Below are positions 6,017 to 45,854 of a DNA stretch of 64,000 nt, one piece after another. Numbering within the stretch: the stretch's first letter is position 1; every line of letters starts with the position of its first letter. Below the pieces are notes generated by a model that was not told the origin of the DNA, ran no database searches, and worked only from the letters and a program-made list of their open reading frames with translations. Both the position numbers and the translations under genes were made by a program. The stretch is taken from NCBI RefSeq assembly GCF_009931435.1, contig NZ_CP043414.1. One strand, given 5' to 3'. This stretch comes from Escherichia coli (lineage in GTDB: Bacteria > Pseudomonadota > Gammaproteobacteria > Enterobacterales > Enterobacteriaceae).

Positions 6017-8461
6017 ATGATGATTTTGAGTATTCTCGCTACGGTTGTCCTGCTCGGCGCGTTGTTCTATCACCGCGTGAGCTTATTTATCAGCAGTCTG
6101 ATTTTGCTCGCCTGGACAGCCGCCCTCGGCGTCGCTGGTCTGTGGTCGGCGTGGGTACTGGTGCCTCTGGCCATTATCCTCGTACCGTTTAACTTTGCGC
6201 CTATGCGTAAGTCGATGATTTCCGCACCGGTATTTCGCGGTTTCCGTAAGGTGATGCCGCCAATGTCGCGCACTGAAAAAGAAGCGATTGATGCAGGCAC
6301 TACCTGGTGGGAAGGCGACTTGTTCCAGGGTAAGCCGGACTGGAAAAAGCTGCATAACTATCCGCAGCCGCGCCTGACCGCTGAAGAGCAAGCGTTTCTC
6401 GACGGCCCGGTAGAAGAAGCCTGCCGGATGGCGAATGATTTCCAGATTACTCATGAGCTGGCGGATCTGCCGCCGGAGTTGTGGGCGTACCTTAAAGAGC
6501 ATCGCTTCTTCGCGATGATCATCAAAAAAGAGTACGGCGGGCTGGAGTTCTCGGCTTATGCCCAATCTCGTGTGCTGCAAAAACTCTCCGGCGTGAGCGG
6601 GATCCTGGCGATTACCGTCGGCGTGCCGAACTCATTAGGCCCGGGCGAGCTGCTGCAACATTACGGCACTGACGAGCAGAAAAATCACTATCTGCCGCGT
6701 CTGGCGCGTGGTCAGGAGATCCCTTGCTTTGCACTGACCAGCCCGGAAGCGGGTTCCGATGCGGGCGCGATTCCGGATACCGGGATTGTCTGCATGGGCG
6801 AGTGGCAGGGCCAGCAGGTGCTGGGGATGCGACTGACCTGGAACAAACGCTACATTACGCTCGCGCCAATTGCGACCGTGCTTGGGCTGGCGTTTAAACT
6901 TTCCGACCCGGAAAAACTGCTGGGTGGCGCAGAAGATTTAGGCATTACCTGTGCACTTATCCCGACCACCACGCCAGGCGTGGAAATTGGTCGTCGCCAC
7001 TTCCCGCTGAACGTACCGTTCCAGAACGGACCGACGCGAGGTAAAGATGTCTTCGTACCGATCGACTACATTATCGGCGGACCAAAAATGGCCGGGCAAG
7101 GCTGGCGGATGCTGGTGGAGTGTCTCTCCGTGGGGCGCGGCATCACCCTACCTTCCAACTCAACCGGCGGCGTGAAGTCGGTGGCGCTGGCAACGGGCGC
7201 GTATGCGCACATTCGCCGTCAGTTCAAAATCTCTATCGGTAAGATGGAAGGGATTGAAGAGCCGCTGGCGCGTATTGCCGGTAATGCCTACGTGATGGAT
7301 GCTGCGGCATCGCTGATTACCTACGGCATTATGCTCGGTGAAAAACCTGCCGTGCTGTCGGCTATCGTTAAGTATCACTGTACCCACCGTGGGCAGCAGT
7401 CGATTATTGATGCGATGGATATCACCGGGGGTAAAGGCATTATGCTCGGTCAGAGCAACTTCCTGGCACGAGCTTACCAGGGCGCACCGATTGCCATCAC
7501 CGTTGAAGGGGCCAACATTCTGACCCGCAGCATGATGATCTTCGGTCAGGGAGCGATTCGTTGCCATCCGTACGTGCTGGAAGAGATGGAAGCGGCGAAG
7601 AACAATGACGTAAACGCGTTCGATAAACTGCTGTTCAAACATATCGGTCACGTCGGTAGCAACAAAGTTCGCAGCTTCTGGCTGGGCCTGACGCGCGGTT
7701 TAACCAGCAGCACGCCAACCGGCGATGCCACTAAACGCTACTATCAGCACCTGAACCGCCTGAGCGCCAACCTCGCCCTGCTTTCTGATGTCTCGATGGC
7801 TGTGCTGGGCGGCAGCCTGAAACGTCGCGAGCGTATCTCGGCACGTCTGGGGGATATTTTAAGCCAGCTTTACCTCGCCTCTGCCGTTCTGAAGCGTTAT
7901 GACGACGAAGGCCGTAATGAAGCCGACCTGCCGCTGGTGCACTGGGGCGTACAGGATGCGCTGTATCAGGCAGAGCAGGCGATGGACGATTTACTGCAAA
8001 ACTTCCCGAACCGCGTGGTTGCCGGGCTTCTGAATGTGGTGATCTTCCCGACCGGACGTCATTATCTGGCACCGTCTGACAAGCTGGATCATAAGGTGGC
8101 GAAGATTTTACAAGTGCCGAACGCCACCCGTTCACGTATTGGTCGCGGTCAGTACCTGACCCCGAGCGAGCATAACCCGGTTGGTTTACTGGAAGAGGCG
8201 CTGGTGGATGTGATTGCCGCCGACCCAATTCATCAGCGGATCTGTAAAGAGCTGGGTAAAAACCTGCCGTTTACCCGTCTGGATGAACTGGCGCATAACG
8301 CGCTGGCGAAGGGGCTGATTGATAAAGATGAAGCCGCTATTCTTGTGAAAGCTGAAGAAAGCCGTCTGCGCAGTATTAATGTTGATGACTTTGATCCGGA
8401 AGAGCTGGCGACGAAGCCGGTAAAGTTGCCGGAGAAAGTGCGGAAAGTTGAAGCCGCATAA
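6017..8461 (+). CDS. fadE: Acyl-CoA dehydrogenase FadE
   Basis: ORF 5939..8461 trimmed to the ATG at 6017, giving 814 aa [14 protein letters not shown]...; N-terminal membrane segment plus acyl-CoA dehydrogenase body. Confidence 0.95.
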
Positions 8462-10029: not shown

Positions 10030-11103
10030 TTACGAAAGCCCGCTCCCCGCAAGGACTGACGCCAGATACTTTCTGTCCATGGCTGCTTTTCGCATCTTAC
10101 GTCTTAACCCTGCCTTGAATACCTTATCATTCGTCAAAATATTAATTGCGATGTGCCGTATCCCTGAAAATAATTCTGCTGCATTTCCTCTTCTTATTTT
10201 GCAGTCGTCTTCATTCATTACCACGTCCAGACGCCAGTGCAGCTTATTCTCCACGTGCCAGTGGTTTCGGATTGCTGTGGCGAACTTCTCTGCGGTTAAA
10301 TCAGCAGAACTGATATAATATCTGACCGTCATTTCTGGCTCTTTCTTTTGTTCTGCTATTATTGACCGAAAGGAGACTGCCACGCATAATTTCTTCAGAC
10401 CTTTCCATTCAAACGTGAAATCAATAAGTTCATCAGGGACATCGCAAACAATGTGAAGACGGATTTCTTCTCTGCCGTGACTCTTTTCACTAATTGCGTA
10501 ACTGTCATGCTCTGGATTATTTAATTCTTTCAGCGGAAATTTTTCCTCGAAGCCTTTATTTAGCCGCCCCTGGTTTCCTTTTACAGCGAATAAATAATCA
10601 CCTCCCTGTTTTTGTATCTTCTCTGCAATATCTTTCTGGCAACCCATCGCATCAGTTGTGATGATTTTTCCTTTAATATCCAGCATGTTAAGAAGTTCTG
10701 GGATAGCTGTAATCTCATTGGATTTCTCATCCGTCTTGATCTGTCCGATGACCAGACTGTGCATTGTTGAGAACGCACTAATGACATGAATCGCTCCCCT
10801 GCGGCGACTCTTGTCATAAGAGTGCCGGAGCGTTTTTCCATCAATTGCAATGACGCCTTTATCATCTGAAGAATGGCAGTCACGCATCCAGTTAATAAAG
10901 CACTCGTGAAATTTTGCAGGACTGATACAGGATACAACTCTGGCAATGGTATCGTGAACAGGAATACCATTTTCAAAATCACCATATTGCTTCAAAAAAT
11001 CGAGATGTGTTTCCCCAAAATCCTCTATATCTTCCCAACCTTCTGCACCCGAAATAACGGCGCAAATAGTCAACAGTAGAATATCCGATAATTTATGTTC
11101 CAC
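10030..11103 (-). mobile_element. H-repeat-associated (ISAs1-family) transposase, the H-rpt element classically found at the distal end of E. coli Rhs elements
   Basis: 357 aa protein with DDE-type transposase features, strongly similar to the E. coli H-repeat proteins (YhhI/YbfD type); located directly downstream of the Rhs array. Confidence 0.8.
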
Positions 11104-11546: not shown

Positions 11547-11951
11547 TCATTTCATTTTTTTAAAACATACGTTAATGCCATTCACACTTCCACATTCACC
11601 AAAAGCATCAAAATAAATTTCACATTTATTGTTGCCTTTCGAAATGATGCTAACCCCCCATCTTATATTGTTATATTTTTCTTTTCTGAAATACTTCATT
11701 TGCAATAAATCAATTATCTTACCCGCATAGAGATCGCTAAGTTCATTCACCACCACTTTATATCTGTATATTTCATTAAGACCTTCCTTGCTAAGCGGAA
11801 CTAACGTGGTAACATACGATGGAAGATTAACTACCTCTATCGTTTTCACGCTATCTATTCCACACAATTCATTCACTCGCCCCATCCCCAATACCGAACC
11901 AGAAAATAGAGACAATAAAACCATCAAATATTTCATCATAAAAAACCTCAC
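11547..11951 (-). CDS. Putative Rhs immunity protein (RhsI) for the rhs-A C-terminal toxin; has a signal peptide
   Basis: 134 aa, AT-rich, starts at the rhs-A stop codon; N-terminus MKYLMVLLSLFSGSVLG looks like a Sec signal peptide; position is that of an immunity gene. Confidence 0.55.
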   Translation of the reverse strand: MRFFMMKYLMVLLSLFSGSVLGMGRVNELCGIDSVKTIEVVNLPSYVTTLVPLSKEGLNEIYRYKVVVNELSDLYAGKIIDLLQMKYFRKEKYNNIRWGVSIISKGNNKCEIYFDAFGECGSVNGINVCFKKMK

Positions 11952-14900
11952 TATTCTGGCGTACCCGTTATTGTCATCGTCTGCAACGGTCCATCCACCC
12001 GATAAAAAGGCAGTCCACTATGAGCTCCTCTGACACACTCATCTAAAGTTTTCGCCGCACGCGATTCAATTATTGTAATAACCCTTGCCTCTTCTTTATT
12101 ATCATATTTCTTATCCGTCCGACTTAAAAGAGCCATGAAATTTTCTTTATCAAGAAGGTAATACTGTGCATGTGCAAACTCATGCCCCAAACCTAATGCA
12201 GGCGATTGTGATTTCGAGTTTAATTCAGTTGAACAAAATAAAGACGCTCTACTATTCCAATATATCGTCATATTATTCGAATTAAATCTACCATTGGTTC
12301 CTTCAATATACTCTATATTTATAGTTTCTTCAGAGCTTGATAAAAAATCTATAGCATCTTTCATTCGTGAATCTTTTTCTAAATACTTAACAGCCTGATT
12401 AAAATCACTTGGATCACCATTAACCTCGAATTTTAAACCCAAAGAATCTATAAACCGAACAGGGTTTAATGGATATTTATACAGATTCCATTCACCTCTT
12501 AGCCCGATTGGATCCTGCGTGATATACCTCCCCTGCAACGGGTCATAGTACCGGTGACGGTTGTAGTACAGCCCCGACTCCTCATCATACTGCTGCCCTG
12601 GCAGACGGTACGGCTGTTGCAGGTGCTCCGGGTTTTCCTCTCCCAGCAGGTTTCCCCACTCGTCATACTCCCCGCGCCACGCCGTTTCCCCTTCCGGGCT
12701 GATAAGCGCCTGCGGCAGCCCACGGTGGTCACAGTGGTAAAGATGAAGTTTCCTCTCCGGGATGTATTCTTCCTCCATCTGGTTGTTCATCTGTTCCGCC
12801 GTCAGCCCGCACTGCGCAAGCCATGCTTCACTCTCCGCACTCACCGCACCCGCGCGCAGTTCCCGCTCCAGCCTCCCCAGCATCACCGACAGCTCCGCCG
12901 GGAGCGTCACACCCGTGTCCTCCTGCAACACCTCCGCCAGGCTACGGTGCCGCGCCTTCGCCTGTTCGCCATTCTCTGTTTCGATTCTCAGGAGCGGCGT
13001 GAAGCTTCCCGGCTGATAAATCGTCTGGATACGTGTGGTGCCGGTCTGTACCGTCGTCAGCCTGTCACCGTCCCACCCGTACCATGTCTCCTCCGGTTTA
13101 CGCGACAGCGACATCCATCCCGTCAGGTCACGCTCCCGCCGCCACACCCGTTTTCCCGTCCTGCGGCCCAGCGGGTCGTAAAGGTAGCGGCTCTCCACCT
13201 GCGGCTCGCCGTGCTGTATCCGCGTGTAGAACACCAGACGGTGCTGGCTGTCGTAATGGTAGTGGTGGGTGCGCTCGTCGTGCATCCGTATCACCCCTTC
13301 CGGGATACGGTCCGTCTTCTCCGCCAGCCTGCCGTATTCATCGTGGCGGTAGACATAGTGCGCATCTTCCGCGATGCGGTTATCCGGCCACGCCGTGAAG
13401 GTGCTGTCCGGGTGCAGTTCCGGGTCCGGCAGCCGGTTTCCTGCCGGGTCCGTCGCATACGGGATATCAATGTCCAGGTTCGCTGCCGTGGTGTGGACGC
13501 CCGTCAGCCTTCCCGTGTCGCTGTAACGGTACTCCCGGCTCTCCTGCGGGCCGCTGATACGCACCAGTTGCCCGTTATCATTCCACGTATACTCACGGTC
13601 AAGCTGCGGAAGGTTCAGGTGCCTGCTCCGGAGCTGGCCTGTGAGGGTGTATGTGCTGGTCAGTTCATATGCGGCATTACTGCCTGCCATGCTGCCGAAG
13701 CTGCGCACCGTCTCACGGTGCAGCCTGTCCCGCGTGTACTCGACCAGCGGCGTTCCGCCCAGCTTCATCCCCGCAAGATAACCGCTGCCATACGTCAGCC
13801 ACTCCACCGGCGGCAGACCGTCCGGCTCCTGACGGGTCGCCAGCCCCTGTTCGCTGTACGCGTGCCCCGTCTCATGCTCCCACAGCATCTCCCCCGTCTC
13901 CGGGTTCTCCACCGTCTGCCGTTCGCCCGTCAGGCGGCCCTTATCGTCATAGCCGTAGTGGACCGCCACACGGTGGCCTTCACTGGTATGGCTGAGGGTG
14001 GTTAACCACCCGTGCTCATCATACTGCCACTGCTCTGCCGCTTCGCCGTTCACCGTCCGGTGCGTGATGCGGTCCGACGCATCGTAGTGCCAGAGGGTGA
14101 TAAGTCCCTCGTCTTCACTGCGGACAAGCTGCCCTGTGGCGCTGTACCGGTAACGCTGTGTCCGTCCGTCAAAGCCGCGCTGCTCCGTCAGGCGGTCCAC
14201 CGGGTCATACAGGAACGTGGACTGGCTGCCGTTCTCATTAGTCAGCGTGGTGATGCGCCCGGCGGCGTCATACCCCATGCTGCGCGTCAGACCGCCCTGC
14301 GTGGTGCTGATAGCTTTACCCCACGCATCATACTGTGTCTCACTGCGGCTGCCGTTCGGGGCAATGATAGCGGTGAGGTCGCCTGCGGCGCTGTACTCAT
14401 AACGGGTTTCACGCCCCTGCACATCCTTCTGACTGACCAGTTGACCACGCGGGTTATAACTGCTGTAAGTGCTGATGCCTTCTTCCCGGTGAACCGCCGT
14501 CCTCTGCCCGTACCGGTCGTACTCATACCGTGTCGTGTACCCCGAGCAGTCCGTGAAGGCCAGCAGTTGACCGTAGCGGCTCCATGCCATCTGTTTTGTA
14601 CTGCCCGTCGCATCCTGTATCCCTGTCGGCAGCTCACTCGCCGGGTCATCATAGCTGTACCGCGTCGTCTCACCGCTGCGCGAGGTCTCCGCCGCCAGCC
14701 TTCCCTTCTCATCATACTCCCGGCTGCTGCGAAGCCCGTCCGGGTACGTCACTGACGTCACCTGCCGCTGGCTGTTGTAGCCATACCGCACCGTCCTGCC
14801 GTCCGGCCCCGTCACCGCCGTCACCGCGCCCGACGCCATATGCAGGCTGTACTCCGTCCGCCGCCCCGCCGCATCCGTCTGCGCCTTCAGCCTCCCCGCC

Positions 14901-16207
14901 GCATCATACTCGCTGCGGGTGATGCTCCCGTCCGCATGCTCCTTCTTCACCACCCGCTTCAGGCCACCCTCGCCTTCCGTGTACAGCACCTCCCGCCTGT
15001 TCAGGCTGTCCGTGATGGTCACACGGTCCTGCCCGTACTCAAAGCGGTAGGCCAGCCCCTCCGGGTTGACCTGCTCCGTCACCCGACCGGTATCATCATA
15101 CCGGTAGCGGCTCTCCGGCCTCCCCGCATAATGGTGCGCCACCATCCGCCCGGCGTGCTCCGCATCATAAGTAAACCCGCGCACCTGCGTCCCGCTGCGG
15201 TCATACACCGCCAGCAACTCACCGCTGGCCGTGTACGTGTAGCGCGCCAGCGGCGCAGTCGGCTGTTCATCCGGGTATGCCGGGTCGTGTGTCAGCCACA
15301 CCGCCTCCAGCCGGATACCGTTATCGGCACCGTATTCTGTACCGGCGGGCAGCGTGTCGGGGAAAACCTGAGAAGAGGAAACAGAACGGGGACCGGCAGG
15401 GGAAGATAAAGACGTGGCGCGCTGTTTACGGCAGGCTTCCGCCCGCTGCGCCTGCGTGCTCAGCAACAGGTGAAAACGACGGCCCGCACCGTCCGTCCCC
15501 CCCGTCACCGCGCCCGCCACGTCACCCTCCGCTGCCCGGTGAAAGGCCAGCGTCCGACCAAAGCCATCCACCACGCCCGTCAGCACCCGGTATGCGGGCG
15601 GTTCCGGCGGCAGCACCTCGTCCGCCCCCGGCACCCGCTCCGGCCAGCTGAGTATCCACCACGGCCCCTGAAGGCTGTTTGTCGCCAGGTACACATGCGG
15701 ACTCAGGCGAACATCTTCCGGCAGCACCTGCCAGAGCGCGCTTAGCGGCTGCGAACTGTGCTGCTCCGCCCCCCCGCCCCGCGCCAGCCAGAACGACTCG
15801 CTGCGGCTGTAGCTTATCTCGCCGGGAAACAGCGGCTCAAAGTGAATGCTCCTGCCGCCGTTGTCGTTGAGTATCAGTTCCCGCTCATGAACCTGTAAGC
15901 GGATATCGAAGGGCGCTTTCCAGCCGGGGCCGAACACGCCCACCGGCGCGGGCGTCCTGGTCCGGTAACTGCTGTAAGCGCGGGAAAGAATAAACGGCAG
16001 CGGGCCGGGCAGTGCCAGGTCCGTCTCGCCCGGCAGCACCTTCGCACCCAGCACCGGGTTCACCGGGTTAGCATAGGTAATCCCTCCCGGACACACCGAG
16101 CAGGCCACTCCCGTCGGCGCACCTATCAGCACCCCTGCTGAACCCTGCACAATATCCAGTCCCTTGCGGGTCATGTCGCCCTGCCGCGCCGCCGGTTTTC
16201 CGCTCAT
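11951..16207 (-). CDS. Rhs-family polymorphic toxin (distal copy) with PAAR-like N-terminus, YD-repeat shell and a C-terminal domain carrying an HExxH motif
   Basis: 1418 aa; N-terminal [16 protein letters not shown]...VACSVCPGG, many YD repeats, DPIGL demarcation motif, then a unique roughly 160 aa tail containing [10 protein letters not shown]. Confidence 0.9.
12502..16207 (-). repeat. Rhs core repeat, copy A (near-identical to 18628..22342; apparently perfect over about 12502..14060)
   Basis: Identical antisense ORFs at a fixed 6126 bp offset (12554..14005 and 18680..20131, etc.) and direct line-by-line comparison. Confidence 0.85.
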
Positions 16208-16330
16208 GGTTTATTCCTCTTCCTCTGAATAAACTTATTTTTGATGCACTAATGATTTTCAAAAGAGATTTATATTTAACGACAATTCAGCACTTTTAAT
16301 GTAAAAGATCCCCGGCTGAATGATATTCAC

Positions 16331-17299
16331 TCATTGTTTGTTATCAGAAAGTGTTTTATACAGCGGCACATATCCCACGTCTTCCACAAGACTTTGCCCC
16401 TGAGGGCTTAAAAACCAGTCCACTAGTTTTTGTGTTTCCGGTGTCGGCTTTTCGCGGGTGACCATGTAGGCATCCACCACATACGGATAAGTACCGTTGC
16501 GGATATTCTCCACCGTTGGTGCAATACCATTTATTGCCAGCAGCTTAAGATTTGGGCTTATATCCTTATTCATCTGTGTGACATAATAGCGGAAGGTGTA
16601 ACCAATTGAAGGCTGCGTATTCCGGTAGGCAATTACTTTGGTTAACACTCCATTCATAAGGCTTACTTCTGTAGATGTTCTGGCGGGTAGCATCGGTGTC
16701 TCTTTCATCACCTTTGCCAGCATCACCGTCTGGCTACCGGAATCTTCCGGACGCTGCCAGACCTGAATGCGCTCATCACTGCCACCAACCTGACTCCAGC
16801 GGGTGATTTTACCGCTGAAGATATCCCGAACCTGCTGTTCAGTAAAAGAACTGACCGGATTACTGGCGTTAACGATAAAAACAAAGGCTTCGTGGGCGAA
16901 GGGGGTATAAACCAGTTTCACCCCGGCATCGGCAGCCCGTTGTTTTTGTCCTGCGGAAGGCTGGGCAACAAAAATAACATCGGCCTGGCGCTTTATGAGA
17001 TCATTATAGGCTTCTGGTGTACGAGTCGGATACATATAATTCAAACCCGGATCTTGATGGTTATCCCCGGGGATCAAATATCGGTAAGCTGAAGCATACA
17101 GTGGATATAACGCGGTTGCACCACATACCCGGGGCCATTTATTCGAGTTATCAGTGTAGCGTAAAGTGGGTTCTCCTCGTATATTGGTTTTCTCCCAACT
17201 CACTGTTTCTTTTACGCTGTTATCGCCCCCGCCGTCTACACATCCTGACATTAATACCGTCATATAAAATAATACTGGTAACAGGCCCACCCTACGCAT
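16331..17299 (-). CDS. PstS-like (phosphate-binding-protein fold) lipoprotein; start uncertain, ORF extends to 17365
   Basis: 344 aa ORF; probable start MRRVGLLPVLFYMTVLMSGC with lipobox; AT-rich; lies between the two Rhs modules. Confidence 0.6.
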   Translation of the reverse strand: MRRVGLLPVLFYMTVLMSGCVDGGGDNSVKETVSWEKTNIRGEPTLRYTDNSNKWPRVCGATALYPLYASAYRYLIPGDNHQDPGLNYMYPTRTPEAYNDLIKRQADVIFVAQPSAGQKQRAADAGVKLVYTPFAHEAFVFIVNASNPVSSFTEQQVRDIFSGKITRWSQVGGSDERIQVWQRPEDSGSQTVMLAKVMKETPMLPARTSTEVSLMNGVLTKVIAYRNTQPSIGYTFRYYVTQMNKDISPNLKLLAINGIAPTVENIRNGTYPYVVDAYMVTREKPTPETQKLVDWFLSPQGQSLVEDVGYVPLYKTLSDNKQ

Positions 17300-17627
17300 A
17301 CAATGATTTAATAAATACGCCATATACCTCACTCTAAAATATTGATTATATAAATACATATGCATAATTATATTTACATCAAATTCTGAATGAACAATTT
17401 AAATTTAGAGAAAGTGAAATTTAATTTTTCGATACTTCCGCATACATATTCCCCTCGCTAAAAAATCATCATTCCACAATCAATCATTAATTACAACTCA
17501 ATATACATCATTTAACTTTCATTAAACTCGCAATTTATTATTACATTGTAGCCATTATGAACTGTCATCACGCACACACTCTACATACACATTAGAAACA
17601 ATATAACCCCATGAGCCATCCTCCGTT

Positions 17628-18074
17628 TCAATACTTAGTGCAGCGTGTCTTAAGGAAATTAGAAGCCACAACATCAATCTTTTCTTTTAAGACTAAATCA
17701 TCCACATAATCACAAGACAAATAGAAGTCATTACCATCGGCCATTATAAATATCCTCATAGGTAAAGATTTATCATTATCAACATGAGCATTCGTAATAA
17801 TCCAATAATAAGGAAATCTAACATTTTTTGTAGGAATACCCAATAAATCATAAGCTTTATTATTATATTCTATCGCTCCCTTAACAAACGTTGGTTTGAC
17901 CTCCTTACCAATAATGCGATGCGACGTATATTCTTCCTTCTCAGCAAACGATTGCATTAATGCCCATATAGGTTTATTTGCCAGCTCACCGTGATGAAAA
18001 ATCCGATAAAAATACACTCCTAAAAAAAATATTAAGCCTAAGCAAACCAATACCATGAGGCAGTTCTTACTCAT
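17628..18074 (-). CDS. Putative Rhs immunity protein (RhsI) for the rhs-B C-terminal toxin; N-terminal membrane anchor
   Basis: 148 aa, AT-rich, overlaps the rhs-B stop by 4 nt; N-terminal hydrophobic helix [18 protein letters not shown]. Confidence 0.55.
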
Positions 18075-21000
18075 TGATTAAAATCCGTAAAATTAGAAGG
18101 AACAGGGCCATTCTCAGGTGAAAACAATGGAGATGTATTTGATACTCGTGATGCTATCATTTCTACAGTAGCAGGAAGATACATTGGCATTCCATTATCA
18201 CCACCTAGCGGATCAGTTGAAGTTAAAATTTCATTTATTGAATCTACTGAGACTCCCGCATGCAACATTGCCTCAATAACCATTGTTGCACAATTGTGCG
18301 TAAAATAGTTATAGTCACTTCTATCTACTTTATATTTTTCATCAATGTACTTAATCATTGCTTTCTCTTGTTCTGGCGTGGTTTTAATTGTATATATCCT
18401 CGTGCTTCTACGTTGTGCTTGTTCAGTTAAATAAGCTATGACACTCCCTCCACGTGGGGTAGCGGTTCCATAGCTATATACCCCTTTTCCAGTAAATGCC
18501 ATCGCAGAATGCCCTAATGGATTACCACTCGTGGGTCCCCCAGCAAAAATAAGGGTATCCAAACCAAGTGGATCTATATTTATAGTTGGATTCCACGGAT
18601 ATTTATAAAGATTCCATCCCCCCGCAAGCCCGATTGGATCCTGCGTGATATACCTCCCCTGCAACGGGTCATAGTACCGGTGACGGTTGTAGTACAGCCC
18701 CGACTCCTCATCATACTGCTGCCCTGGCAGACGGTACGGCTGTTGCAGGTGCTCCGGGTTTTCCTCTCCCAGCAGGTTTCCCCACTCGTCATACTCCCCG
18801 CGCCACGCCGTTTCCCCTTCCGGGCTGATAAGCGCCTGCGGCAGCCCACGGTGGTCACAGTGGTAAAGATGAAGTTTCCTCTCCGGGATGTATTCTTCCT
18901 CCATCTGGTTGTTCATCTGTTCCGCCGTCAGCCCGCACTGCGCAAGCCATGCTTCACTCTCCGCACTCACCGCACCCGCGCGCAGTTCCCGCTCCAGCCT
19001 CCCCAGCATCACCGACAGCTCCGCCGGGAGCGTCACACCCGTGTCCTCCTGCAACACCTCCGCCAGGCTACGGTGCCGCGCCTTCGCCTGTTCGCCATTC
19101 TCTGTTTCGATTCTCAGGAGCGGCGTGAAGCTTCCCGGCTGATAAATCGTCTGGATACGTGTGGTGCCGGTCTGTACCGTCGTCAGCCTGTCACCGTCCC
19201 ACCCGTACCATGTCTCCTCCGGTTTACGCGACAGCGACATCCATCCCGTCAGGTCACGCTCCCGCCGCCACACCCGTTTTCCCGTCCTGCGGCCCAGCGG
19301 GTCGTAAAGGTAGCGGCTCTCCACCTGCGGCTCGCCGTGCTGTATCCGCGTGTAGAACACCAGACGGTGCTGGCTGTCGTAATGGTAGTGGTGGGTGCGC
19401 TCGTCGTGCATCCGTATCACCCCTTCCGGGATACGGTCCGTCTTCTCCGCCAGCCTGCCGTATTCATCGTGGCGGTAGACATAGTGCGCATCTTCCGCGA
19501 TGCGGTTATCCGGCCACGCCGTGAAGGTGCTGTCCGGGTGCAGTTCCGGGTCCGGCAGCCGGTTTCCTGCCGGGTCCGTCGCATACGGGATATCAATGTC
19601 CAGGTTCGCTGCCGTGGTGTGGACGCCCGTCAGCCTTCCCGTGTCGCTGTAACGGTACTCCCGGCTCTCCTGCGGGCCGCTGATACGCACCAGTTGCCCG
19701 TTATCATTCCACGTATACTCACGGTCAAGCTGCGGAAGGTTCAGGTGCCTGCTCCGGAGCTGGCCTGTGAGGGTGTATGTGCTGGTCAGTTCATATGCGG
19801 CATTACTGCCTGCCATGCTGCCGAAGCTGCGCACCGTCTCACGGTGCAGCCTGTCCCGCGTGTACTCGACCAGCGGCGTTCCGCCCAGCTTCATCCCCGC
19901 AAGATAACCGCTGCCATACGTCAGCCACTCCACCGGCGGCAGACCGTCCGGCTCCTGACGGGTCGCCAGCCCCTGTTCGCTGTACGCGTGCCCCGTCTCA
20001 TGCTCCCACAGCATCTCCCCCGTCTCCGGGTTCTCCACCGTCTGCCGTTCGCCCGTCAGGCGGCCCTTATCGTCATAGCCGTAGTGGACCGCCACACGGT
20101 GGCCTTCACTGGTATGGCTGAGGGTGGTTAACCACCCGTGCTCATCATACTGCCACTGCTCTGCCGCTTCGCCGTTCACCGTCCGGTGCGTGATGCGGTC
20201 CGACGTATCGTAGTGCCAGAGGGTGATAAGCCCCTCGTCTTCACTGCGGACAAGCTGCCCTGCGGCGCTGTACCGGTAACGCTGTGTCCTGCCATCAAAG
20301 CCGCGCTGCTCCGTCAGGCGGTCCAGCACATCATAGGTAAACTCACTCCGGCTGCCGTTCTCGTTGGTCAGCACGGTGATGCGCCCGGCGGCGTCATACC
20401 CCATGCTGCGCGTCAGCCCGCCCTGCGTGGTGCTGACGGCCTTTCCCCACGCATCATACTGTGTCTCACTGCGGCTGCCGTCCGGGGCAATGATAGCGGT
20501 GAGGTCGCCTGCGGCGCTGTACTCATAACGGGTTTCACGCCCCTGCACATCCTTCTGACTGACCAGTTGACCACGCGGGTTATAACTGCTGTAAGTGCTG
20601 ATGCCTTCTTCCCGGTGAACCGCCGTCCTCTGCCCGTACCGGTCGTACTCATACCGTGTCGTGTACCCCGAGCAGTCCGTGAAGGCCAGCAGTTGACCGT
20701 AGCGGCTCCATGCCATCTGTTTTGTACTGCCCGTCGCATCCTGTATCCCTGTCGGCAGCTCACTCGCCGGGTCATCATAGCTGTACCGCGTCGTCTCACC
20801 GCTGCGTGAGGTCTCCGCCGCCAGCCTTCCCTTCTCGTCATACTCCCGGCTGCTGCGCAGCCCGTCCGGGTACGTCACTGACGTCACCTGCCGCTGGCTG
20901 TTGTAGCCATACCGCACCGTCCTGCCGTCCGGCCCCGTCACCGCCGTCACCGCGCCCGACGCCATATGTATCCGGTACTCCGTCCGCCGTCCCGCCGCAT

Positions 21001-22342
21001 CCGTCTGCGCCTTCAGCCTCCCCGCCTCATCATACCCGCTGCGGGTGATGCTCCCGTCCGCATGCTCCTTCTTCACCACACGCTTCAGGCCACCCTCGCC
21101 CTCCGTGTACAGCACCTCCCGCCTGTTCAGGCTGTCCGTGATGGTCACACGGTCCTGCCCGTACTCAAAGCGGTAGTCCAGTCCCTCCGGGTTGACCTGC
21201 TCCGTCACCCGCCCGGTATCATCATACCGGTAGCGGCTCTCCGGCCTCCCCGCATAATGGTGCGCCACCATCCGCCCGGCGTGCTCCGCATCATAAGTAA
21301 ACCCGCGCACCTGCGTCCCGCTGCGGTCATACACCGCCAGCAACTCACCGCTGGCCGTGTACGTGTAGCGCGCCAGCGGCGCAGTCGGCTGTTCATCCGG
21401 GTATGCCGGGTCGTGTGTCAGCCACACCGCCTCCAGACGGATACCGTTATCGGCACCGTATTCTGTACCGGCGGGCAGCGTGTCGGGGAAAACCTGAGAA
21501 GAGGAAACAGAACGGGGACCGGCAGGGGAAGATAAAGACGTGGCGCGCTGTTTACGGAAGGCTTCCGCCCGCTGCGCCTGCGTGCTCAGCAACAGGTGAA
21601 AACGACGGCCCGCACCGTCCGTCACCCCCGTCACCGCGCCCGCCACGTCACCCTCTGCCACCCGGTGGAAAGTCATCGTCCGACCAAAGCCATCCACCAC
21701 GCCCGTCAGTACCCGGTATGCGGGTGGCTCCGGCGGCAGCACCTCGTCCACTTCCGGCACCCGCTCCGGCCAGCCGAGCACCAGCCACTGCCCGGTTGTG
21801 CTGACAGCCATCATATAGGTGTGTGGACTCAGGCGGACCGCTTCCGGCAGCGCCCGCCAGAACCGCGCAAGCGGGTGTCCTTTATGCTGTTTCAGCACCC
21901 CGCCCCGCGCCAGCCAGAACGACTCGCTGCGGCTGTAGCTTATCTCGCCGGGAAACAGGGGTTCAAAGTGGATGCTCCGGCCACCGCTGTCGTTAAGTAT
22001 CAGTTCACGCTCACAAATCTGTAAGCGGATGTCGGAGGGGGCTTTCCAGCCGGGGCCGAATATCCCCACCGGGGCTGGCGTCTTCGTCCGGTAACTGCTG
22101 TAGGCGCGGAAAAGGATGAACGGCAACGGGCCGGATAGTGCCAGGTCGGTTTCAGCAGGCAGTACCTTCGCTCCCAGCAGCGGGTTTACCGGATTGCCAT
22201 ATTTCGGCGTGGCTTCCCCTGTGGGACACACCGAGCAGGCAACCCCCGTCGGCGCACCTATCAGCACCCCTGCTGAACCCTGCACAATATCCAGTCCCTT
22301 GCGGGTCATGTCACCCTGCCGCGCCGCCGGTTTTCCGCCCAT
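18071..22342 (-). CDS. Rhs-family polymorphic toxin (vgrG-proximal copy) with PAAR-like N-terminus and a C-terminal domain with a His...Cys pattern (possible permuted papain-like hydrolase)
   Basis: 1423 aa; same architecture as the other rhs; after DPIGL the tail contains GHSAMAF...YSYG...[12 protein letters not shown]. Confidence 0.9.
18628..22342 (-). repeat. Rhs core repeat, copy B (near-identical to 12502..16207)
   Basis: See copy A; N-terminal 250 codons are more diverged, the central and 3' core is almost identical. Confidence 0.85.
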
Positions 22343-22417: not shown

Positions 22418-24559
22418 TCAAAATTGCCGCATATCCGGCATTCCGGGGGGTAAATCTTTCGGCACAGGCGCATCCGGCACAGGTTGTGTGGCACCACAGT
22501 TCCAGTTAATCACCGGCGCATCACCGTTCACATCCGACTCCCCTTCCAGATGAATGTGCGTACCATTAAGAAATATGCTTCCGTCCTTCGTCAGCACCAG
22601 CCTTGCCTTACCACAGCAGAGTTCAAGATGCTCACCGGCAGAATAAACTGCTGTTTGTCCGGTGTTTTCCTTCATCGTCTTGCCCACCGAGAAGGTGACG
22701 TTATTCCCTACATTGACGCTGTAGCCCATTCCCACCATCAGTGATTTATGCAGCCCTACCTGTGAGGACTGCAACAACGCCACCGAGGTATTCATAATGC
22801 CGCCTACCGTCGTCTGGTAAGCCACGCCCACCGTCAGCGCACGAATGATCCCCACCTTTTCAACCTGGTTTGATCCCACTTTGATAATCTGGTTACTGCC
22901 CACCGTTTCCACCTGGTTGACACCAACCGTCTGTATCTGATTAACGCCAATGTTCTGGATCTGGTTATTGGTAACGGTGATCGCCTGGTTGTTACCTATT
23001 TTTTCGGCATGGTTGTTTATCACATCAGTGGTGCGGTTATTCAGCACCTCGGTGTTCATGTTCTTCTGCGCGTGGATGTAGACCTGTTCTTTCCCTGTCG
23101 CATCGTCAAACTTCAGTTCATTAAACCCGCTGCCCTTATAGGTTTTCGAACGAATGGTCATCTGCGTCTTTGTTCCCGGCAGGCTGCCGGGGGTGCGGTT
23201 TTCCTGGTGGTAGGTACGCCCCATAATAATCGGCTGGTCCGGATCGCCGTTGAGGAAGTCCACAATGACCTCCTGACCCACACGCGGTATCGCCAGGTTA
23301 CCAAACCCGGTGCCTGCCCACGCCTGTGCCACACGGATCCAGCATGAACTGTCCTGGTTTGACGGGTTATAACGGTCCCAGTTAAATTTCACCCGCACGC
23401 GGCCATGTTCATCACAGAAGATTTCTTCTCCTGCCGGTCCCGTCACGACGGCGCTCTGCGGGCCATCCACCAGCGGTTTCAGCAACGGCTGTGGCCGCCA
23501 TGTTCTGTCTGCCGGTATTACCGCAAAGTGGTTATTCAGCGTGGTACCTGAACCCCTGCGTCCCGGCACCGCCTGCGGCTGCTCGCCGTGCAGTTCACTT
23601 GCCACCACCTGCCATTCCCGGTTCAGGTTCGCCTGCGGATGCCCCGTCAGCGCAATTCGCCGTCCCGGCCATATCTCCGGAGAACGGCTTGTTCCGCGCG
23701 CCACTTCTGCGTTGTTTCGCCAGCCATCCATCTGCCAGCGGGCAAAGTTCTGCCCGTGGGCACCCTTGAAACGTCCGGGGTAGTCATACACTTCATACTG
23801 TGTGCGCTGGTAATCCTGGTACTGGCCTTCCTGATCAAAACGCCCTGCCCAGCCGGGTCGTTTAAAGGTGTAGTCCTTGGTCACCACGGAAGAAGGGCGG
23901 ATTTGTGCGCTGTAGCGGAACTGGCTGATGCATAGGGTGCTCACCTCGGTACGGGTGTTCGGATTCCAGGGGATCTCAAAGGACTCCGGCAGATAACGCA
24001 CGGTGTCGCACAGGACCAGGCTCTGGTCGGTACTTTTTTGCGCGTGCTCCTCATAAAAGAAGATGCCTTCCTCCGCCGCCATCCGGCACAGGAAATCGTA
24101 ATCGGTTTCGCCGTACTGGACACAAAACTCACGGGAAGGATGCGGCTCGCTGAACAGCGGACTCCACTCGGTCACCCCGTTTTCTTTCAGGATCGTCGCG
24201 AGTATGCTTTCGATGTCCTCATTCTGGAAGATACGGAAGTTCTGGCGCAGCCCTGTGCGCCACAGCGGTGGGCATACCTTCATGCTGTACAGCATCTGGT
24301 TTTTGTCGTTCTCCCCCAGTTCAAACCAGGTCACCACACCTTTCACCCGGCGCTGTACGTCATCGCCCTGCCATATCGTCAGGTAGGCCATTTTGTCCAG
24401 CACCTGCGCAAATTCAAGGGAGAGAAACTGCTGGCTGACCAGAGAGAGATCGAGGGAAAAGAGCGAAGAGAGTGACTGGTTCAGATGAAAGGAGACCACC
24501 GCAAACGCGTCCGGTGGCAGGCCGTCCACTTCCAGCGTGAAACGTAATCCGGTTGACAT
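22418..24559 (-). CDS. vgrG: T6SS spike protein VgrG (TssI)
   Basis: 713 aa; gp27/gp5-like VgrG body with a short Pro-rich C-terminal tail; 75 nt upstream of rhs-B. Confidence 0.95.
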   Translation of the reverse strand: MSTGLRFTLEVDGLPPDAFAVVSFHLNQSLSSLFSLDLSLVSQQFLSLEFAQVLDKMAYLTIWQGDDVQRRVKGVVTWFELGENDKNQMLYSMKVCPPLWRTGLRQNFRIFQNEDIESILATILKENGVTEWSPLFSEPHPSREFCVQYGETDYDFLCRMAAEEGIFFYEEHAQKSTDQSLVLCDTVRYLPESFEIPWNPNTRTEVSTLCISQFRYSAQIRPSSVVTKDYTFKRPGWAGRFDQEGQYQDYQRTQYEVYDYPGRFKGAHGQNFARWQMDGWRNNAEVARGTSRSPEIWPGRRIALTGHPQANLNREWQVVASELHGEQPQAVPGRRGSGTTLNNHFAVIPADRTWRPQPLLKPLVDGPQSAVVTGPAGEEIFCDEHGRVRVKFNWDRYNPSNQDSSCWIRVAQAWAGTGFGNLAIPRVGQEVIVDFLNGDPDQPIIMGRTYHQENRTPGSLPGTKTQMTIRSKTYKGSGFNELKFDDATGKEQVYIHAQKNMNTEVLNNRTTDVINNHAEKIGNNQAITVTNNQIQNIGVNQIQTVGVNQVETVGSNQIIKVGSNQVEKVGIIRALTVGVAYQTTVGGIMNTSVALLQSSQVGLHKSLMVGMGYSVNVGNNVTFSVGKTMKENTGQTAVYSAGEHLELCCGKARLVLTKDGSIFLNGTHIHLEGESDVNGDAPVINWNCGATQPVPDAPVPKDLPPGMPDMRQF

Positions 24560-24768: not shown

Positions 24769-25287
24769 TTATGCTTCCAGCGGTGCGCGCCAGTCGTCGG
24801 CACCGGAGGTGCCAGATTTGACGTGTTCCCACTCAATCTTGCGGTAGGCCAGTGAAACTTCGAGCAACTGGGTGAACTCGCGTTTCGCCGGGTCCTGGCA
24901 ATGCGGCATATGCAGTTTCATATCGACAATCGTCGAATCAGTCAGGCGGGTGGTGAAATAATGCTCCTGTTTGCCTTCCACAGATGTACGCCACCAGTGC
25001 AGTTCAGTGGTTGGCAGCATTTCACCGGAGGCCAGTGCGTTGTACATCAGCGGAACCGCTTTGTTCAGCGCCACGGTAAAAATGAACGGCTTGTGAGCAC
25101 GCTGACCCGCAGGCTGACCGGACTGAGGATCGGTCGGGACAGTAACGTTATGCAGGAATTCCTGCACCAGCATCTCGTCTTCGTGCCCCTGCACATAGAT
25201 GTTGCCGACAGAATCAGCGGTAAATGCACCTGCAGTAATATTTCCCTGGGTCTGACCAGTGATGGAGATATAACACGGTGTTGGCAT
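24769..25287 (-). CDS. hcp: T6SS tube protein Hcp (TssD), copy 1
   Basis: 172 aa Hcp-family protein; divergently arranged from tssB. Confidence 0.9.
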   Translation of the reverse strand: MPTPCYISITGQTQGNITAGAFTADSVGNIYVQGHEDEMLVQEFLHNVTVPTDPQSGQPAGQRAHKPFIFTVALNKAVPLMYNALASGEMLPTTELHWWRTSVEGKQEHYFTTRLTDSTIVDMKLHMPHCQDPAKREFTQLLEVSLAYRKIEWEHVKSGTSGADDWRAPLEA

Positions 25288-45371: not shown

Positions 45372-45854
45372 ATGGCAAATATGAGTTATTTATCTTTAAG
45401 TGGGGAGACACAAGGGCTGATTTCAGCGGGTTGCTCAACGCTTGACTCTGTCGGAAACAAAGCGCAGTTAGAGCATAAAGATCAGATCATGGTTTATGCG
45501 CTAATGCACTCCATCTCAAGAAGTCAGAATGTCAATCATCATGAACTGGTCATCACCAAGCCTGTTGATAAATCCTCACCGTTGCTGGCAAAAGCACTTA
45601 GTGACAATGAAAAAATGACAGCGTGTGAATTTATACTCTACCGAACCAGTAAAGAGGGCATTAACCAGCCTTACTATAAAATAAATCTGTCAAAAGCCAG
45701 GATATCAAGTATTGATTTTGTCACACCTCATGCTGTTCTGGAAAAAGAACTGGAGCCACAGGAGAGAATTGCCTTTATTTATGAAGATATTTCCTGGGAG
45801 CATACGTTAGCCAGGACGAATGCAATGAGTAAATGGCAGGATCGTGTACAGTAA
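45372..45854 (+). CDS. hcp: T6SS tube protein Hcp, copy 2 (divergent paralog)
   Basis: 160 aa Hcp-family protein; AT-rich; followed by candidate effector and immunity genes. Confidence 0.85.
   Translation: MANMSYLSLSGETQGLISAGCSTLDSVGNKAQLEHKDQIMVYALMHSISRSQNVNHHELVITKPVDKSSPLLAKALSDNEKMTACEFILYRTSKEGINQPYYKINLSKARISSIDFVTPHAVLEKELEPQERIAFIYEDISWEHTLARTNAMSKWQDRVQ

What the first reader, a model, noticed from the sequence alone, without database searches (positions are those of the whole stretch)
16331..17365. PstS-like lipoprotein between the two Rhs toxin-immunity modules
A periplasmic phosphate-binding-protein-fold lipoprotein is encoded between immunity gene 2 and rhs-A, in the same orientation and with the same AT-rich composition as the immunity genes. 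It has no ABC transporter partners nearby. It could be an orphan immunity-like gene, a co-acquired accessory factor, or a toxin-related binding protein.
Basis: partly seen in the sequence, partly recalled or inferred. Interest (0 to 1): 0.55.

Follow-up and report, generated by a model that had tools for sequence, protein, structure and literature searches.

The report
PstS-like lipoprotein riding in Rhs array
The gene is real and encodes a membrane-tethered relative of the phosphate-binding protein PstS. It belongs to a widespread, uncharacterised family (E. coli yzgL), and one copy was captured into the spacer between two Rhs toxin genes; it is most likely a passenger binding protein rather than a toxin or an immunity protein.

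Summary
The ORF at 16331-17365 (-) is a real gene. Its likely start is ATG 17323, giving 330 aa. It encodes a lipoprotein (lipobox LMSGC) with a confidently predicted PstS-type two-lobed fold.

It is not a canonical PstS:
- It scores below the NCBIfam cut-off.
- It keeps seven of eight phosphate-contacting positions of E. coli PstS but has Ala in place of Asp56.
- It has no Pho box.
- No pstCAB/phoU lies nearby, here or in about 100 related loci.

It belongs to a family found across several phyla, usually anchored by an N-terminal multi-pass membrane domain. In Enterobacteriaceae this family sits between glgP and glpD, and K-12 yzgL is its remnant. Short lipoprotein forms are one enterobacterial clade, mostly found in that glgP-glpD island.

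A minority of short forms (E. albertii, Salmonella, this E. coli window) lie in Rhs arrays, always in the same micro-context: a relic Rhs toxin tip upstream and, in four of five, an rhs 5' end downstream. These copies are under purifying selection.

The upstream toxin tips are of three types with little or no detectable similarity, and the GC content is 0.47 against 0.33 for the immunity genes. Both points argue against a specific immunity role.

Best reading: a captured, still functional periplasmic oxyanion-binding passenger. The finding is moderately interesting, and an immunity role is not excluded.

The parts
16331..17323 (-). Coding sequence of the PstS-like lipoprotein (330 aa from ATG 17323). 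The mechanical ORF extends to ATG 17365 (344 aa).
   Evidence: ORF. GAGG precedes ATG 17323. The conserved block with E. albertii starts at 17348. Homologues. Long-range Ka/Ks is 0.12-0.30.
17240..17323 (-). Signal peptide (MAYLLNHCMRRVGLLPVLFYMTVLMSG) and lipobox Cys (codon 17242-17240). Residue +2 is Val.
   Evidence: Read from the sequence. One hydrophobic segment at residues 25-44. Lipoboxes ([AST]GC) are conserved in short-form relatives.
16403..17044 (-). Pfam PBP_like_2 match (residues 108-321 of the 344-aa ORF). The modelled two-lobed domain begins further upstream, at about residue 60.
16733..16753 (-). C-lobe anion-binding motif R205-P-E207-D-S209-G210-S211. It corresponds to E. coli PstS R135, D137, S139, G140 and T141.
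   Evidence: hhalign against E. coli PstS. The motif residues are invariant (R205, S209, S211) or nearly invariant (G210) in the family.
16964..17116 (-). N-lobe binding positions: T84 (17116-17114, equivalent to PstS T10), T116 (17020-17018, equivalent to S38) and A134 (16966-16964, in place of PstS D56).
16208..16330 (-). 123-bp AT-rich spacer between the PstS-like gene and the second rhs. It is conserved together with both genes. It contains no terminator-like site and one weak promoter-like site.
17324..17627 (-). AT-rich spacer (GC 0.29) between immunity gene 2 and the PstS-like gene. Similarity to the E. albertii locus breaks inside it, at 17348. No Pho box.
11951..16207 (-). Second rhs (1418 aa, PAAR-type N-terminus). 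Its C-terminal tip carries HEFAH and resembles a metallopeptidase.
11547..11951 (-). Immunity gene of the second rhs (134 aa, with a signal peptide).
18071..22342 (-). First rhs (1423 aa), directly downstream of vgrG. Its C-terminal tip has a His...Asn-Cys papain-like pattern.
17628..18074 (-). Immunity gene of the first rhs (148 aa, N-terminal membrane anchor). It overlaps the rhs stop codon.
10030..11103 (-). ISAs1 (H-repeat) transposase that closes the Rhs array next to yafV.

Best explanation
The gene encodes an exported, lipid-anchored protein with the two-lobed fold of the phosphate-binding protein PstS.

Family. It is a short-form member of an uncharacterised family whose usual form is about 500 aa: an N-terminal multi-pass membrane anchor followed by the same binding domain. 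In Enterobacteriaceae that family lives between glgP and glpD, and K-12 yzgL is the stump of such a gene. In the short forms a lipoprotein signal peptide replaces the membrane anchor.

Inferred mechanism:
- The protein is secreted by Sec and lipidated on the lipobox Cys (Cys42 of the 344-aa ORF, Cys28 of the 330-aa protein).
- Because residue +2 is Val, it probably goes to the inner face of the outer membrane.
- There it closes on a tetrahedral oxyanion or a phosphoryl group, using T84, T116, R205 (braced by E207) and S209-G210-S211.
- The acceptor Asp56 of PstS is replaced by Ala. The ligand is therefore probably not protonated orthophosphate bound in the PstS manner. It could be a fully ionised oxyanion or a phosphorylated envelope or nutrient molecule.
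- No permease accompanies it, so it binds, senses or sequesters its ligand rather than importing it.

Why it is here (inferred from comparisons). One short-form copy was captured into the spacer between two rhs genes. It has since been carried between Escherichia and Salmonella, and duplicated, by the recombination that reshuffles Rhs arrays. It is kept intact by selection on its own binding function. It is a passenger in the toxin array, not a toxin, an immunity protein or a secretion helper.
For: Fold and family:
- Pfam PBP_like_2.
- AlphaFold pLDDT 87.8, with top PDB matches all PstS.

Binding site:
- hhalign against E. coli PstS gives T10->T84, S38->T116, R135->R205, D137->E207, S139->S209, G140->G210, T141->S211 and D56->A134.
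- These positions are invariant or nearly so in 28- and 72-sequence alignments.

Lipoprotein:
- Signal peptide and lipobox in the sequence, conserved in the short forms.

No transporter:
- No PstA, PstC or PhoU within 10 kb on either side in about 100 loci, or anywhere in the window.
- No recurrent permease neighbour.
- No Pho box.

Family breadth:
- 295 relatives among species-representative genomes. They include Planococcaceae, Treponema, Campylobacteraceae and Burkholderiales.

Home locus:
- glgP | gene | glpD in E. coli and relatives.
- K-12 yzgL is 89% identical to the first 80 residues of the long form.

Phylogeny:
- Short forms form one clade nested among long forms. The Rhs-array copies fall in two lineages interleaved with island copies.
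- Sequence clusters typed as island-type outnumber Rhs-type about 4 to 1.

Capture and co-travel:
- The block of gene, spacer and rhs 5' end is conserved at 95% (E. albertii) and 72-73% (Salmonella).
- The rhs head lies immediately downstream in four of five Rhs-context copies.

Selection:
- Ka/Ks is 0.12-0.30 between Rhs-array copies. Against an island copy it is 0.19, the same range.

Not an immunity gene:
- GC is 0.47 against 0.33 for the immunity genes.
- Both rhs genes have their own overlapping immunity genes.
- The upstream toxin tips are of three types: two show no detectable similarity to each other and the third is only weakly similar to one of them.
Against: - No ligand has been tested, and the anion-site argument rests on a profile alignment at about 20% identity plus a predicted model.
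- In four of five Rhs-context copies the PstS-like gene is the first intact ORF after an Rhs toxin tip, with no other candidate immunity gene in between. That is the position of an immunity gene.
- The linkage to the rhs 5' end has survived long divergence. This could also mean a functional tie rather than co-inheritance.
- Ka/Ks between the two closest copies (window against E. albertii) is 0.60. It is based on few substitutions, so recent constraint is not demonstrated.
- Outer-membrane sorting is inferred only from the +2 rule.
Confidence: 0.55

Rival explanations
1. It is a periplasmic immunity protein. It would be cognate to the relic 'type X' Rhs tip seen in E. albertii and Salmonella, and orphaned in this window after a new tip plus Imm2 displaced the old tip. 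It would protect the periplasm by binding the toxin or shielding its phosphorylated target.
For: - The type X tip is followed directly by this gene, 105-220 bp downstream, with no other ORF in the immunity position, in both E. albertii and Salmonella.
- A type Y tip is likewise followed directly by it in Salmonella SPI-6.
- Similarity between the window and E. albertii breaks just upstream of the gene, as expected if a tip-plus-immunity cassette was replaced and the old immunity gene was left behind.
- Both flanking immunity proteins are exported, so the toxins of this array act in the periplasm, where a lipoprotein could protect.
Against: - The same protein (66-96% identical) follows three tip types that are unrelated or only weakly similar, whereas immunity is normally toxin-specific.
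- Island copies with no toxin nearby are as similar to the window's copy (65-67%) as most Rhs-array copies are (66-73%).
- The family exists in phyla without T6SS.
- The PstS anion site stays invariant in Rhs-array copies.
- The SPI-6 copy has lost its signal peptide, so it could not protect the periplasm.
- Types X and Y are known only as rare relic fragments, or in a frameshifted rhs in the case of X, so their immunity genes may simply have been lost.
- GC differs from the immunity genes by 13 points.
Confidence: 0.15
2. It is an accessory of the downstream rhs, expressed as one operon with it. Examples would be an envelope sensor that couples Rhs expression or firing to a phosphate-type signal, or a factor needed for self-protection during loading.
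For: - The gene is in the same orientation as rhs, with a 123-bp spacer and no terminator-like site.
- Gene, spacer and rhs head are conserved as one block across Escherichia and Salmonella.
- Two diverged copies in Salmonella are each followed by an rhs head.
Against: - A periplasmic lipoprotein cannot chaperone a cytoplasmic PAAR-Rhs.
- It has no Eag (DUF1795), DUF4123 or DUF2169 domain.
- In Salmonella the gene stays intact while the downstream rhs is reduced to an 80-residue head fused to a tip, so it is kept without a functional partner.
- Most family members have no rhs nearby.
- A promoter-like site lies within the gene's last codons and the start of the spacer.
Confidence: 0.1
3. It is a genuine extra phosphate-scavenging PstS that hands phosphate to the housekeeping PstCAB transporter.
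For: - It has the PstS fold, and seven of eight contact positions are conserved.
- Databases name it a PstS-family protein.
Against: - It scores 128 bits against the 206.6-bit cut-off of TIGR02136, and 16.6 against 205 for TIGR00975.
- Asp56 is replaced by Ala.
- It is only about 17-20% identical to E. coli PstS.
- It is lipid- or membrane-anchored.
- There is no Pho box.
- No family member examined sits next to pstCAB.
Confidence: 0.08
4. It is a decaying relic with no present function, intact only by chance.
For: - It lies among relic Rhs fragments in related arrays.
- The SPI-6 copy lacks a signal peptide.
- Ka/Ks between the closest pair is 0.60.
- It is absent from 5,426 complete E. coli genomes.
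Against: - The reading frame is intact in every copy examined.
- Long-range Ka/Ks is 0.12-0.30.
- The binding-site residues are invariant or nearly invariant.
- The lipobox is retained.
Confidence: 0.07

Closest known systems
E. coli PstS (periplasmic phosphate-binding protein of PstSCAB; PDB 1IXH/2ABH family)
   Same: - Same type II two-lobed fold.
- Equivalent residues at T10, S38, R135, D137, S139, G140 and T141.
   Different: - About 17-20% identity.
- Asp56 is replaced by Ala.
- It is lipid-anchored rather than soluble.
- It has no pstCAB-phoU neighbours and no Pho box.
PstS-2 type proteins (TIGR02136; for example C. perfringens 4GD5/4Q8R, Borrelia 4N13, Synechocystis Sll0540 9L8J)
   Same: - These are the best sequence and structure matches.
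- They share the R-x-x-x-S-G-[ST] motif and the C-lobe.
   Different: - The score is below the family cut-off, and only the C-terminal two-thirds of the profile matches.
- The Ser-Arg pair of the N-lobe ('ASR') is Ala-Gln here.
- The family has its own invariant motifs: GATAxYPxYA, IFVAQPS, QRPxDSGSQ and IGYTFRYY.
YzgL-locus protein of E. coli (about 500-aa 'PstS family' gene between glgP and glpD; K-12 yzgL is its remnant)
   Same: - Same binding domain at 64% identity, with the same invariant motifs.
- Function also unknown.
   Different: - The long form is anchored by about five hydrophobic segments, whereas this protein has a lipoprotein signal.
- The long form sits in a conserved chromosomal slot, whereas this one sits in an Rhs array.
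Periplasmic or lipoprotein T6SS immunity proteins and orphan immunity genes of Rhs arrays
   Same: - Exported protein encoded downstream of a toxin tip, in the same orientation, inside an Rhs array. In relatives it is the first ORF after the tip.
   Different: - It is conserved rather than hypervariable.
- It is not specific to one toxin type.
- It differs in GC content.
- It belongs to a family that exists without toxins.

Membership tests
PstS, phosphate ABC transporter substrate-binding protein (NCBIfam TIGR02136 / TIGR00975) | Whole-protein score at or above the curated cut-off | tested here: not met
   TIGR02136 scores 128.1 bits against a cut-off of 206.6, and only profile positions 101-295 match. 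TIGR00975 scores 16.6 bits against 205.
PstS, phosphate ABC transporter substrate-binding protein | Type II periplasmic-binding-protein fold of PstS | tested here: met
   The AlphaFold model has pLDDT 87.8. The top 48 Foldseek PDB matches are all PstS, DING or PhoX phosphate-binding proteins, with E down to 3e-18.
PstS, phosphate ABC transporter substrate-binding protein | Hydrogen-bond donors of the phosphate site (E. coli T10, S38, R135 with D137, S139, G140, T141) | tested here: met
   hhalign gives T84, T116, R205 with E207, S209, G210 and S211. All are invariant or nearly invariant in the family. This rests on alignment and a model only.
PstS, phosphate ABC transporter substrate-binding protein | Asp56-type acceptor that selects protonated phosphate over sulfate | tested here: not met
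   Asp56 aligns with Ala134, in the motif IFVAQPS that is conserved across the family.
PstS, phosphate ABC transporter substrate-binding protein | Encoded with pstC, pstA, pstB (and phoU) | tested here: not met
   tblastn finds no PstA, PstC or PhoU in the window or in about 100 related loci (10 kb on either side). No recurrent permease neighbour was found.
PstS, phosphate ABC transporter substrate-binding protein | Pho-regulon control (Pho box upstream) | tested here: not met
   The window has no match to CTGTCATNNNNCTGTCAT with up to 3 mismatches between 17324 and 17627. Expression was not measured.
Pfam PBP_like_2 (PF12849) | Significant match to the profile | tested here: met
   E 6.1e-32, residues 108-321.
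YzgL-type membrane-anchored PstS-like family (defined here) | The motifs GATAxYPxYA, IFVAQPS, EAFVF, QRPxDSGSQ and IGYTFRYY, an N-terminal membrane or lipid anchor, and no transporter genes | tested here: met
   All motifs are present. The protein has a lipobox anchor. It is 60-73% identical to family members and falls in the short-form clade.
Bacterial lipoprotein | Positively charged n-region, hydrophobic h-region, and lipobox [LVI][ASTVI][GAS]C | tested here: met
   The signal is MAYLLNHCMRR-VGLLPVLFYMTVL-MSG-C, with Met at position -3. Lipidation itself cannot be tested here.
Rhs / T6SS immunity protein | Encoded immediately after, usually overlapping, its cognate toxin gene | tested here: inconclusive
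   In the window this is not the case: Imm2 overlaps the rhs stop codon, and the gene lies 262 bp further downstream by the mechanical ORF (about 300 bp from ATG 17323). In E. albertii and Salmonella it is the first ORF after a relic toxin tip, at gaps of 54-220 bp.
Rhs / T6SS immunity protein | Sequence co-varies with the toxin type, is hypervariable, and is confined to toxin loci | tested here: not met
   The same protein follows three tip types that are unrelated or only weakly similar. Island copies without toxins are as similar as most Rhs-array copies. The family is present in Firmicutes and spirochaetes.
Rhs / T6SS immunity protein | Binds and neutralises the toxin | not testable with these tools
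   This needs co-expression, pull-down or multimer modelling.
Rhs loading accessories (Eag/DUF1795, DUF4123, DUF2169, PAAR) | Presence of one of these domains and a cytoplasmic location | tested here: not met
   Only PBP-type domains were found, and the protein has an export signal.

The most novel reading that the evidence does not exclude
A solute-binding-protein fold has been recruited as a periplasmic protective (immunity-type) lipoprotein against Rhs toxins that act in the envelope. The paralogue arrays in the glgP-glpD island would then be stores of such protective genes. The conserved anion site would serve to shield or sequester the toxins' phosphorylated target rather than to take up nutrient.
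Probability: 0.12. Interest if true: 0.7.

Novelty: new variant of a known kind. Interest (0 to 1): 0.35.

Why it matters
If the main reading holds, there are three modest lessons:
- Genes annotated as 'PstS family phosphate ABC transporter substrate-binding protein' include a large, widespread set of membrane-tethered orphan binding proteins. These proteins lack the phosphate-selecting Asp and any transporter, and their ligand is unknown.
- E. coli yzgL is the stump of one such gene.
- Rhs arrays can carry conserved non-toxin passengers for long evolutionary times, and such passengers may serve as fixed anchors for swapping toxin tips.

If the minority reading holds and the protein is protective against periplasmic Rhs toxins, it would add a new fold and a new logic to T6SS immunity.

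Tried and rejected
- Megablast and blastn of the gene, the upstream toxin tip plus Imm2, and the E. albertii type X tip against 5,426 complete E. coli genomes gave no match. These genomes therefore could not be used to survey contexts.
- Protein searches with the relic toxin tips found too little to use. Type X returned only three Salmonella orphan clusters and type Y returned nothing. The test 'what normally follows these toxins' could not be run.
- PADLOC defence models gave no hits for the gene, its long-form relative, the island partners or the immunity proteins.
- NCBIfam searches on the island partner genes were not informative.
- Literature searches found nothing relevant. The terms tried were yzgL; Rhs with PstS; periplasmic binding protein with T6SS immunity; and E. 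albertii T6SS.
- A Pho-box search found nothing upstream of the gene.
- Neighbour clustering in 79 loci looked for a conserved partner outside Enterobacteriaceae and found none.
- I first thought every short form lies upstream of an rhs 5' end. That was rejected once short forms were found in the glgP-glpD island.
- I considered that the upstream tips might belong to one His...Cys toxin family matched to the lipoprotein. BLAST shows types X and Y are not detectably related.
- A linker-fused AlphaFold run of toxin tip plus lipoprotein was considered and not run. Only 3-4 paired sequences exist, so the result would not be reliable.
Full report

The window has a 344-codon ORF at 16331-17365 on the minus strand. 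The surrounding minus-strand layout is:
- hcp, 24769-25287
- vgrG, 22418-24559
- first rhs, 18071-22342
- its immunity gene, 17628-18074, which overlaps the rhs stop codon
- the ORF in question
- second rhs, 11951-16207
- its immunity gene, 11547-11951
- an ISAs1 transposase, 10030-11103

The T6SS core genes follow on the plus strand from about 25983.

The ORF is far more than a chance reading frame:
- Pfam PBP_like_2, E 6e-32.
- NCBIfam TIGR02136, E 3.7e-37.
- 644 database homologues, the best 96% identical.

The likely start is ATG 17323 (Met15), for three reasons. It is preceded by GAGG. Conservation with the closest orthologous locus begins at 17348. The annotated orthologue starts at the equivalent place.

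From that start the protein opens with a typical lipoprotein signal, MAYLLNHCMRR-VGLLPVLFYMTVL-MSG-Cys. Almost all short-form relatives keep a lipobox.

GC values are:
- the gene, 0.468
- the two immunity genes, 0.333 and 0.338
- the rhs cores, 0.63
- the window as a whole, 0.52
- the two flanking spacers, 0.29-0.31; these are the only truly AT-rich parts

**2. What kind of protein is it?**

An AlphaFold model built on 72 sequences is confident (pLDDT 87.8, pTM 0.83). It shows a low-confidence N-terminal signal and tether, followed by a two-lobed domain. Its best matches among solved structures are all phosphate-binding proteins: Synechocystis Sll0540, Borrelia, Clostridium, Vibrio and Streptococcus PstS, and then E. 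coli PstS itself.

A profile alignment against E. coli PstS maps the classical phosphate contacts as follows:

| E. coli PstS | This protein (344-aa numbering) |
|---|---|
| T10 | T84 |
| F11 (main chain) | A85 |
| S38 | T116 |
| R135 | R205 |
| D137 | E207 |
| S139 | S209 |
| G140 | G210 |
| T141 | S211 |
| D56 | A134 |

All of these residues are invariant or nearly invariant in the family. The anion site is therefore nearly complete. The exception is the one carboxylate which, by established knowledge of PstS, accepts a hydrogen bond from protonated phosphate and excludes sulfate. The D56N and D137 mutant structures appear.

The protein is nevertheless not a canonical PstS:
- It scores 128 bits against the 206.6-bit cut-off of TIGR02136, and only the C-terminal two-thirds of that profile matches.
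- No Pho box lies upstream.
- No PstA, PstC or PhoU homologue exists in the window. The only PstB-like ATPase is 46 kb away.

**3. The family.**

Alignment of relatives shows two architectures around one highly conserved binding domain:
- Short forms of about 320-340 aa with a lipoprotein signal.
- Long forms of about 500 aa with an N-terminal region holding about five hydrophobic segments.

The domain carries its own invariant motifs: GATAxYPxYA, IFVAQPS, EAFVF, QRPxDSGSQ and IGYTFRYY.

A scan of one genome per species found 295 relatives. They occur in Enterobacteriaceae, Budviciaceae, Burkholderiales, Campylobacteraceae, Planococcaceae (Lysinibacillus, Sporosarcina), Treponema and others. 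Many of these have no T6SS or Rhs.

Neighbour clustering over 79 loci found no conserved partner and no permease.

In Escherichia and related genera the gene occupies a fixed slot between glgP and glpD. It often occurs there as tandem long and short paralogues followed by variable small genes. The annotated K-12 gene yzgL, in the same slot, is 89% identical to the first 80 residues of the long form, so it is a remnant of this gene. I found no functional literature on it.

**4. Is it tied to Rhs loci?**

Partly. A neighbour-joining tree puts all short lipoprotein forms in one enterobacterial clade nested among long forms. Within that clade the Rhs-array copies form two lineages that are interleaved with glgP-glpD island copies. 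Typing the database clusters by nearest neighbour gives about 370 member sequences of Rhs type against about 1,470 of island type.

The Rhs-array copies have a strikingly constant micro-context.

*Downstream.*
- The gene, the spacer and the rhs 5' end form one block. It is 95% identical between the window and E. albertii, and 72-73% identical to a Salmonella array near yegQ.
- In that Salmonella array two diverged copies are each followed by an rhs head of about 80 residues fused to a toxin tip.
- The first of those Salmonella units carries a tip 39% identical to the window's second Rhs tip, plus a related immunity gene. It is therefore the same module with the rhs core deleted.

*Upstream.* Every copy follows an Rhs toxin tip:
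- Type X in E. albertii and in Salmonella copy 1.
- Type Y at the end of Salmonella SPI-6, and as a frameshifted remnant before Salmonella copy 2.
- The window's own first Rhs tip, followed by Imm2.

In four of the five cases no other ORF occupies the immunity position.

Ka/Ks between Rhs-array copies is 0.12-0.30. Against an island copy it is 0.19, the same range, so these copies have been under purifying selection.

**5. Weighing the explanations.**

The position directly after toxin tips raised the possibility that the lipoprotein is an immunity protein. In the window it would then have been orphaned when a new tip plus Imm2 replaced type X. The homology break at 17348 fits that idea. Both immunity proteins of the window are exported, so these toxins act in the periplasm. 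The first tip is papain-like (weak Lnb_N, PPPDE and TseH matches). The second carries HEFAH (weak Peptidase_M91 match).

Several observations weigh against immunity:
- Types X and Y are not detectably related to each other. The window's own tip shows no detectable similarity to X and only weak similarity to Y. Yet the lipoproteins that follow them are 66-96% identical.
- Island copies with no toxin nearby are as similar to the window's copy as most Rhs-array copies are.
- The anion-site residues remain invariant or nearly invariant in Rhs-array copies.
- The SPI-6 copy has lost its signal peptide.
- Types X and Y are known only as rare relic fragments, or in a frameshifted rhs in the case of X. 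Their immunity genes may simply have been lost.
- The family is present in bacteria without such toxins.

An accessory role for the downstream Rhs is also unlikely. The protein is exported and has no Eag, DUF4123 or DUF2169 domain. It also stays intact in Salmonella next to gutted rhs genes.

The most economical account has three steps:
1. A short-form paralogue from the glgP-glpD island was captured into an inter-rhs spacer once or twice.
2. It was then spread and duplicated by the recombination between rhs cores that remodels these arrays.
3. It is retained for its own binding function.

Its conserved sequence may incidentally provide a fixed downstream anchor for exchange of tip-plus-immunity cassettes. 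That last point is inference.

**6. Provenance.**

The window's fadE is 98-99% identical to every E. coli genome. The locus is the E. coli T6SS island between yafV and ykfM. However, the PstS-like gene, the first Rhs tip plus Imm2, and the type X tip have no nucleotide match in 5,426 complete E. coli genomes. This array content is therefore rare in E. coli, and its nearest relative was found in E. albertii.

**7. Verdict.**

- The gene is real. It is a lipoprotein with a PstS fold, and it lacks transporter partners.
- It is not a canonical PstS. It is most probably not an immunity gene, and its composition is not that of the immunity genes.
- It is a short-form member of an uncharacterised, widespread family of membrane-tethered PstS-like proteins, sitting as a conserved passenger in an Rhs array.
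- Probabilities: about 0.55 for the passenger oxyanion-binder reading, 0.15 for immunity, 0.10 for an Rhs accessory, 0.08 for a true PstS and 0.07 for a dead relic.
- Novelty is that of a variant of a known kind, and interest is moderate.

Noticed in passing
window 12398-16207 and 18521-22342: The two rhs genes share 93.7% amino-acid identity over about 1,270 residues. That makes a direct repeat of about 3.8 kb, which should drive deletion or duplication of everything between the copies, including the PstS-like gene.
   Followed up: partly
window 18071-18556 and 11951-12429, with 17628-18074 and 11547-11951: Both Rhs tips look like envelope-acting hydrolases. The first is His...Asn-Cys papain-like, with weak Lnb_N, PPPDE and TseH matches. 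The second carries HEFAH, with a weak Peptidase_M91 match. Both immunity proteins carry N-terminal export or anchor signals.
   Followed up: partly
L001 9500-9896; L094 9330-9784; L002 about 6560-6990: A rare 'type X' Rhs tip (DS..LV.RDLS.FGSGSR.RSD..THTFL...RNC...) has only three homologue clusters in 5.8 billion proteins. It is always followed directly by the PstS-like gene, with no immunity ORF in between.
   Followed up: partly
L092 7598-8430 and L093 2-652: A 'type Y' Rhs tip at the end of Salmonella SPI-6 has no homologue at all in the protein database. It abuts a copy of the PstS-like gene whose signal peptide is truncated, just before pagN.
   Followed up: partly
L004 13007-13612 (E. 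coli); L011 15838-16347: The last gene of the E. coli glgP-glpD island (201 aa) appears to be a free-standing copy of the N-terminal membrane anchor of the long-form protein. If so, the island is bracketed by two copies of that anchor. The evidence is single-linkage clustering with the family and shared N- and C-terminal motifs seen by eye. A direct BLASTP against the E. coli long form found no significant match.
   Followed up: partly
L103 5725-6006 (E. coli K-12 yzgL, b3427): yzgL is annotated as a 93-aa uncharacterised protein. It is the 5' remnant of the roughly 500-aa PstS-like gene that is intact in many other E. coli: the four-gene island query was at least 80% covered in 2,432 of 5,426 complete genomes.
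   Followed up: yes
L011 11511-14318: In Superficieibacter the glgP-glpD island carries an inserted 935-aa helicase-like protein with a nuclease-like C-terminus, flanked by two copies of the 236-aa island gene. The island may be a hotspot for defence-type genes.
   Followed up: no
L098 12787-13839: Some E. coli-type glgP-glpD islands also hold an ankyrin-repeat protein and further small unannotated genes downstream of the long and short PstS-like pair.
   Followed up: no
L001 8718-8767: The rhs gene downstream of vgrG in the E. albertii relative is split into two overlapping ORFs. This is either a frameshift or an assembly error.
   Followed up: no
window 45372-45854: A second, divergent hcp (28% identical to the first) lies at the far end of the T6SS core cluster.
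   Followed up: no
window 10030-11103 compared with L102 24092-25228: An ISAs1 (H-repeat) transposase sits at the same array boundary next to yafV, both in the window and in an E. coli strain whose Rhs array and T6SS cluster are partly deleted.
   Followed up: no
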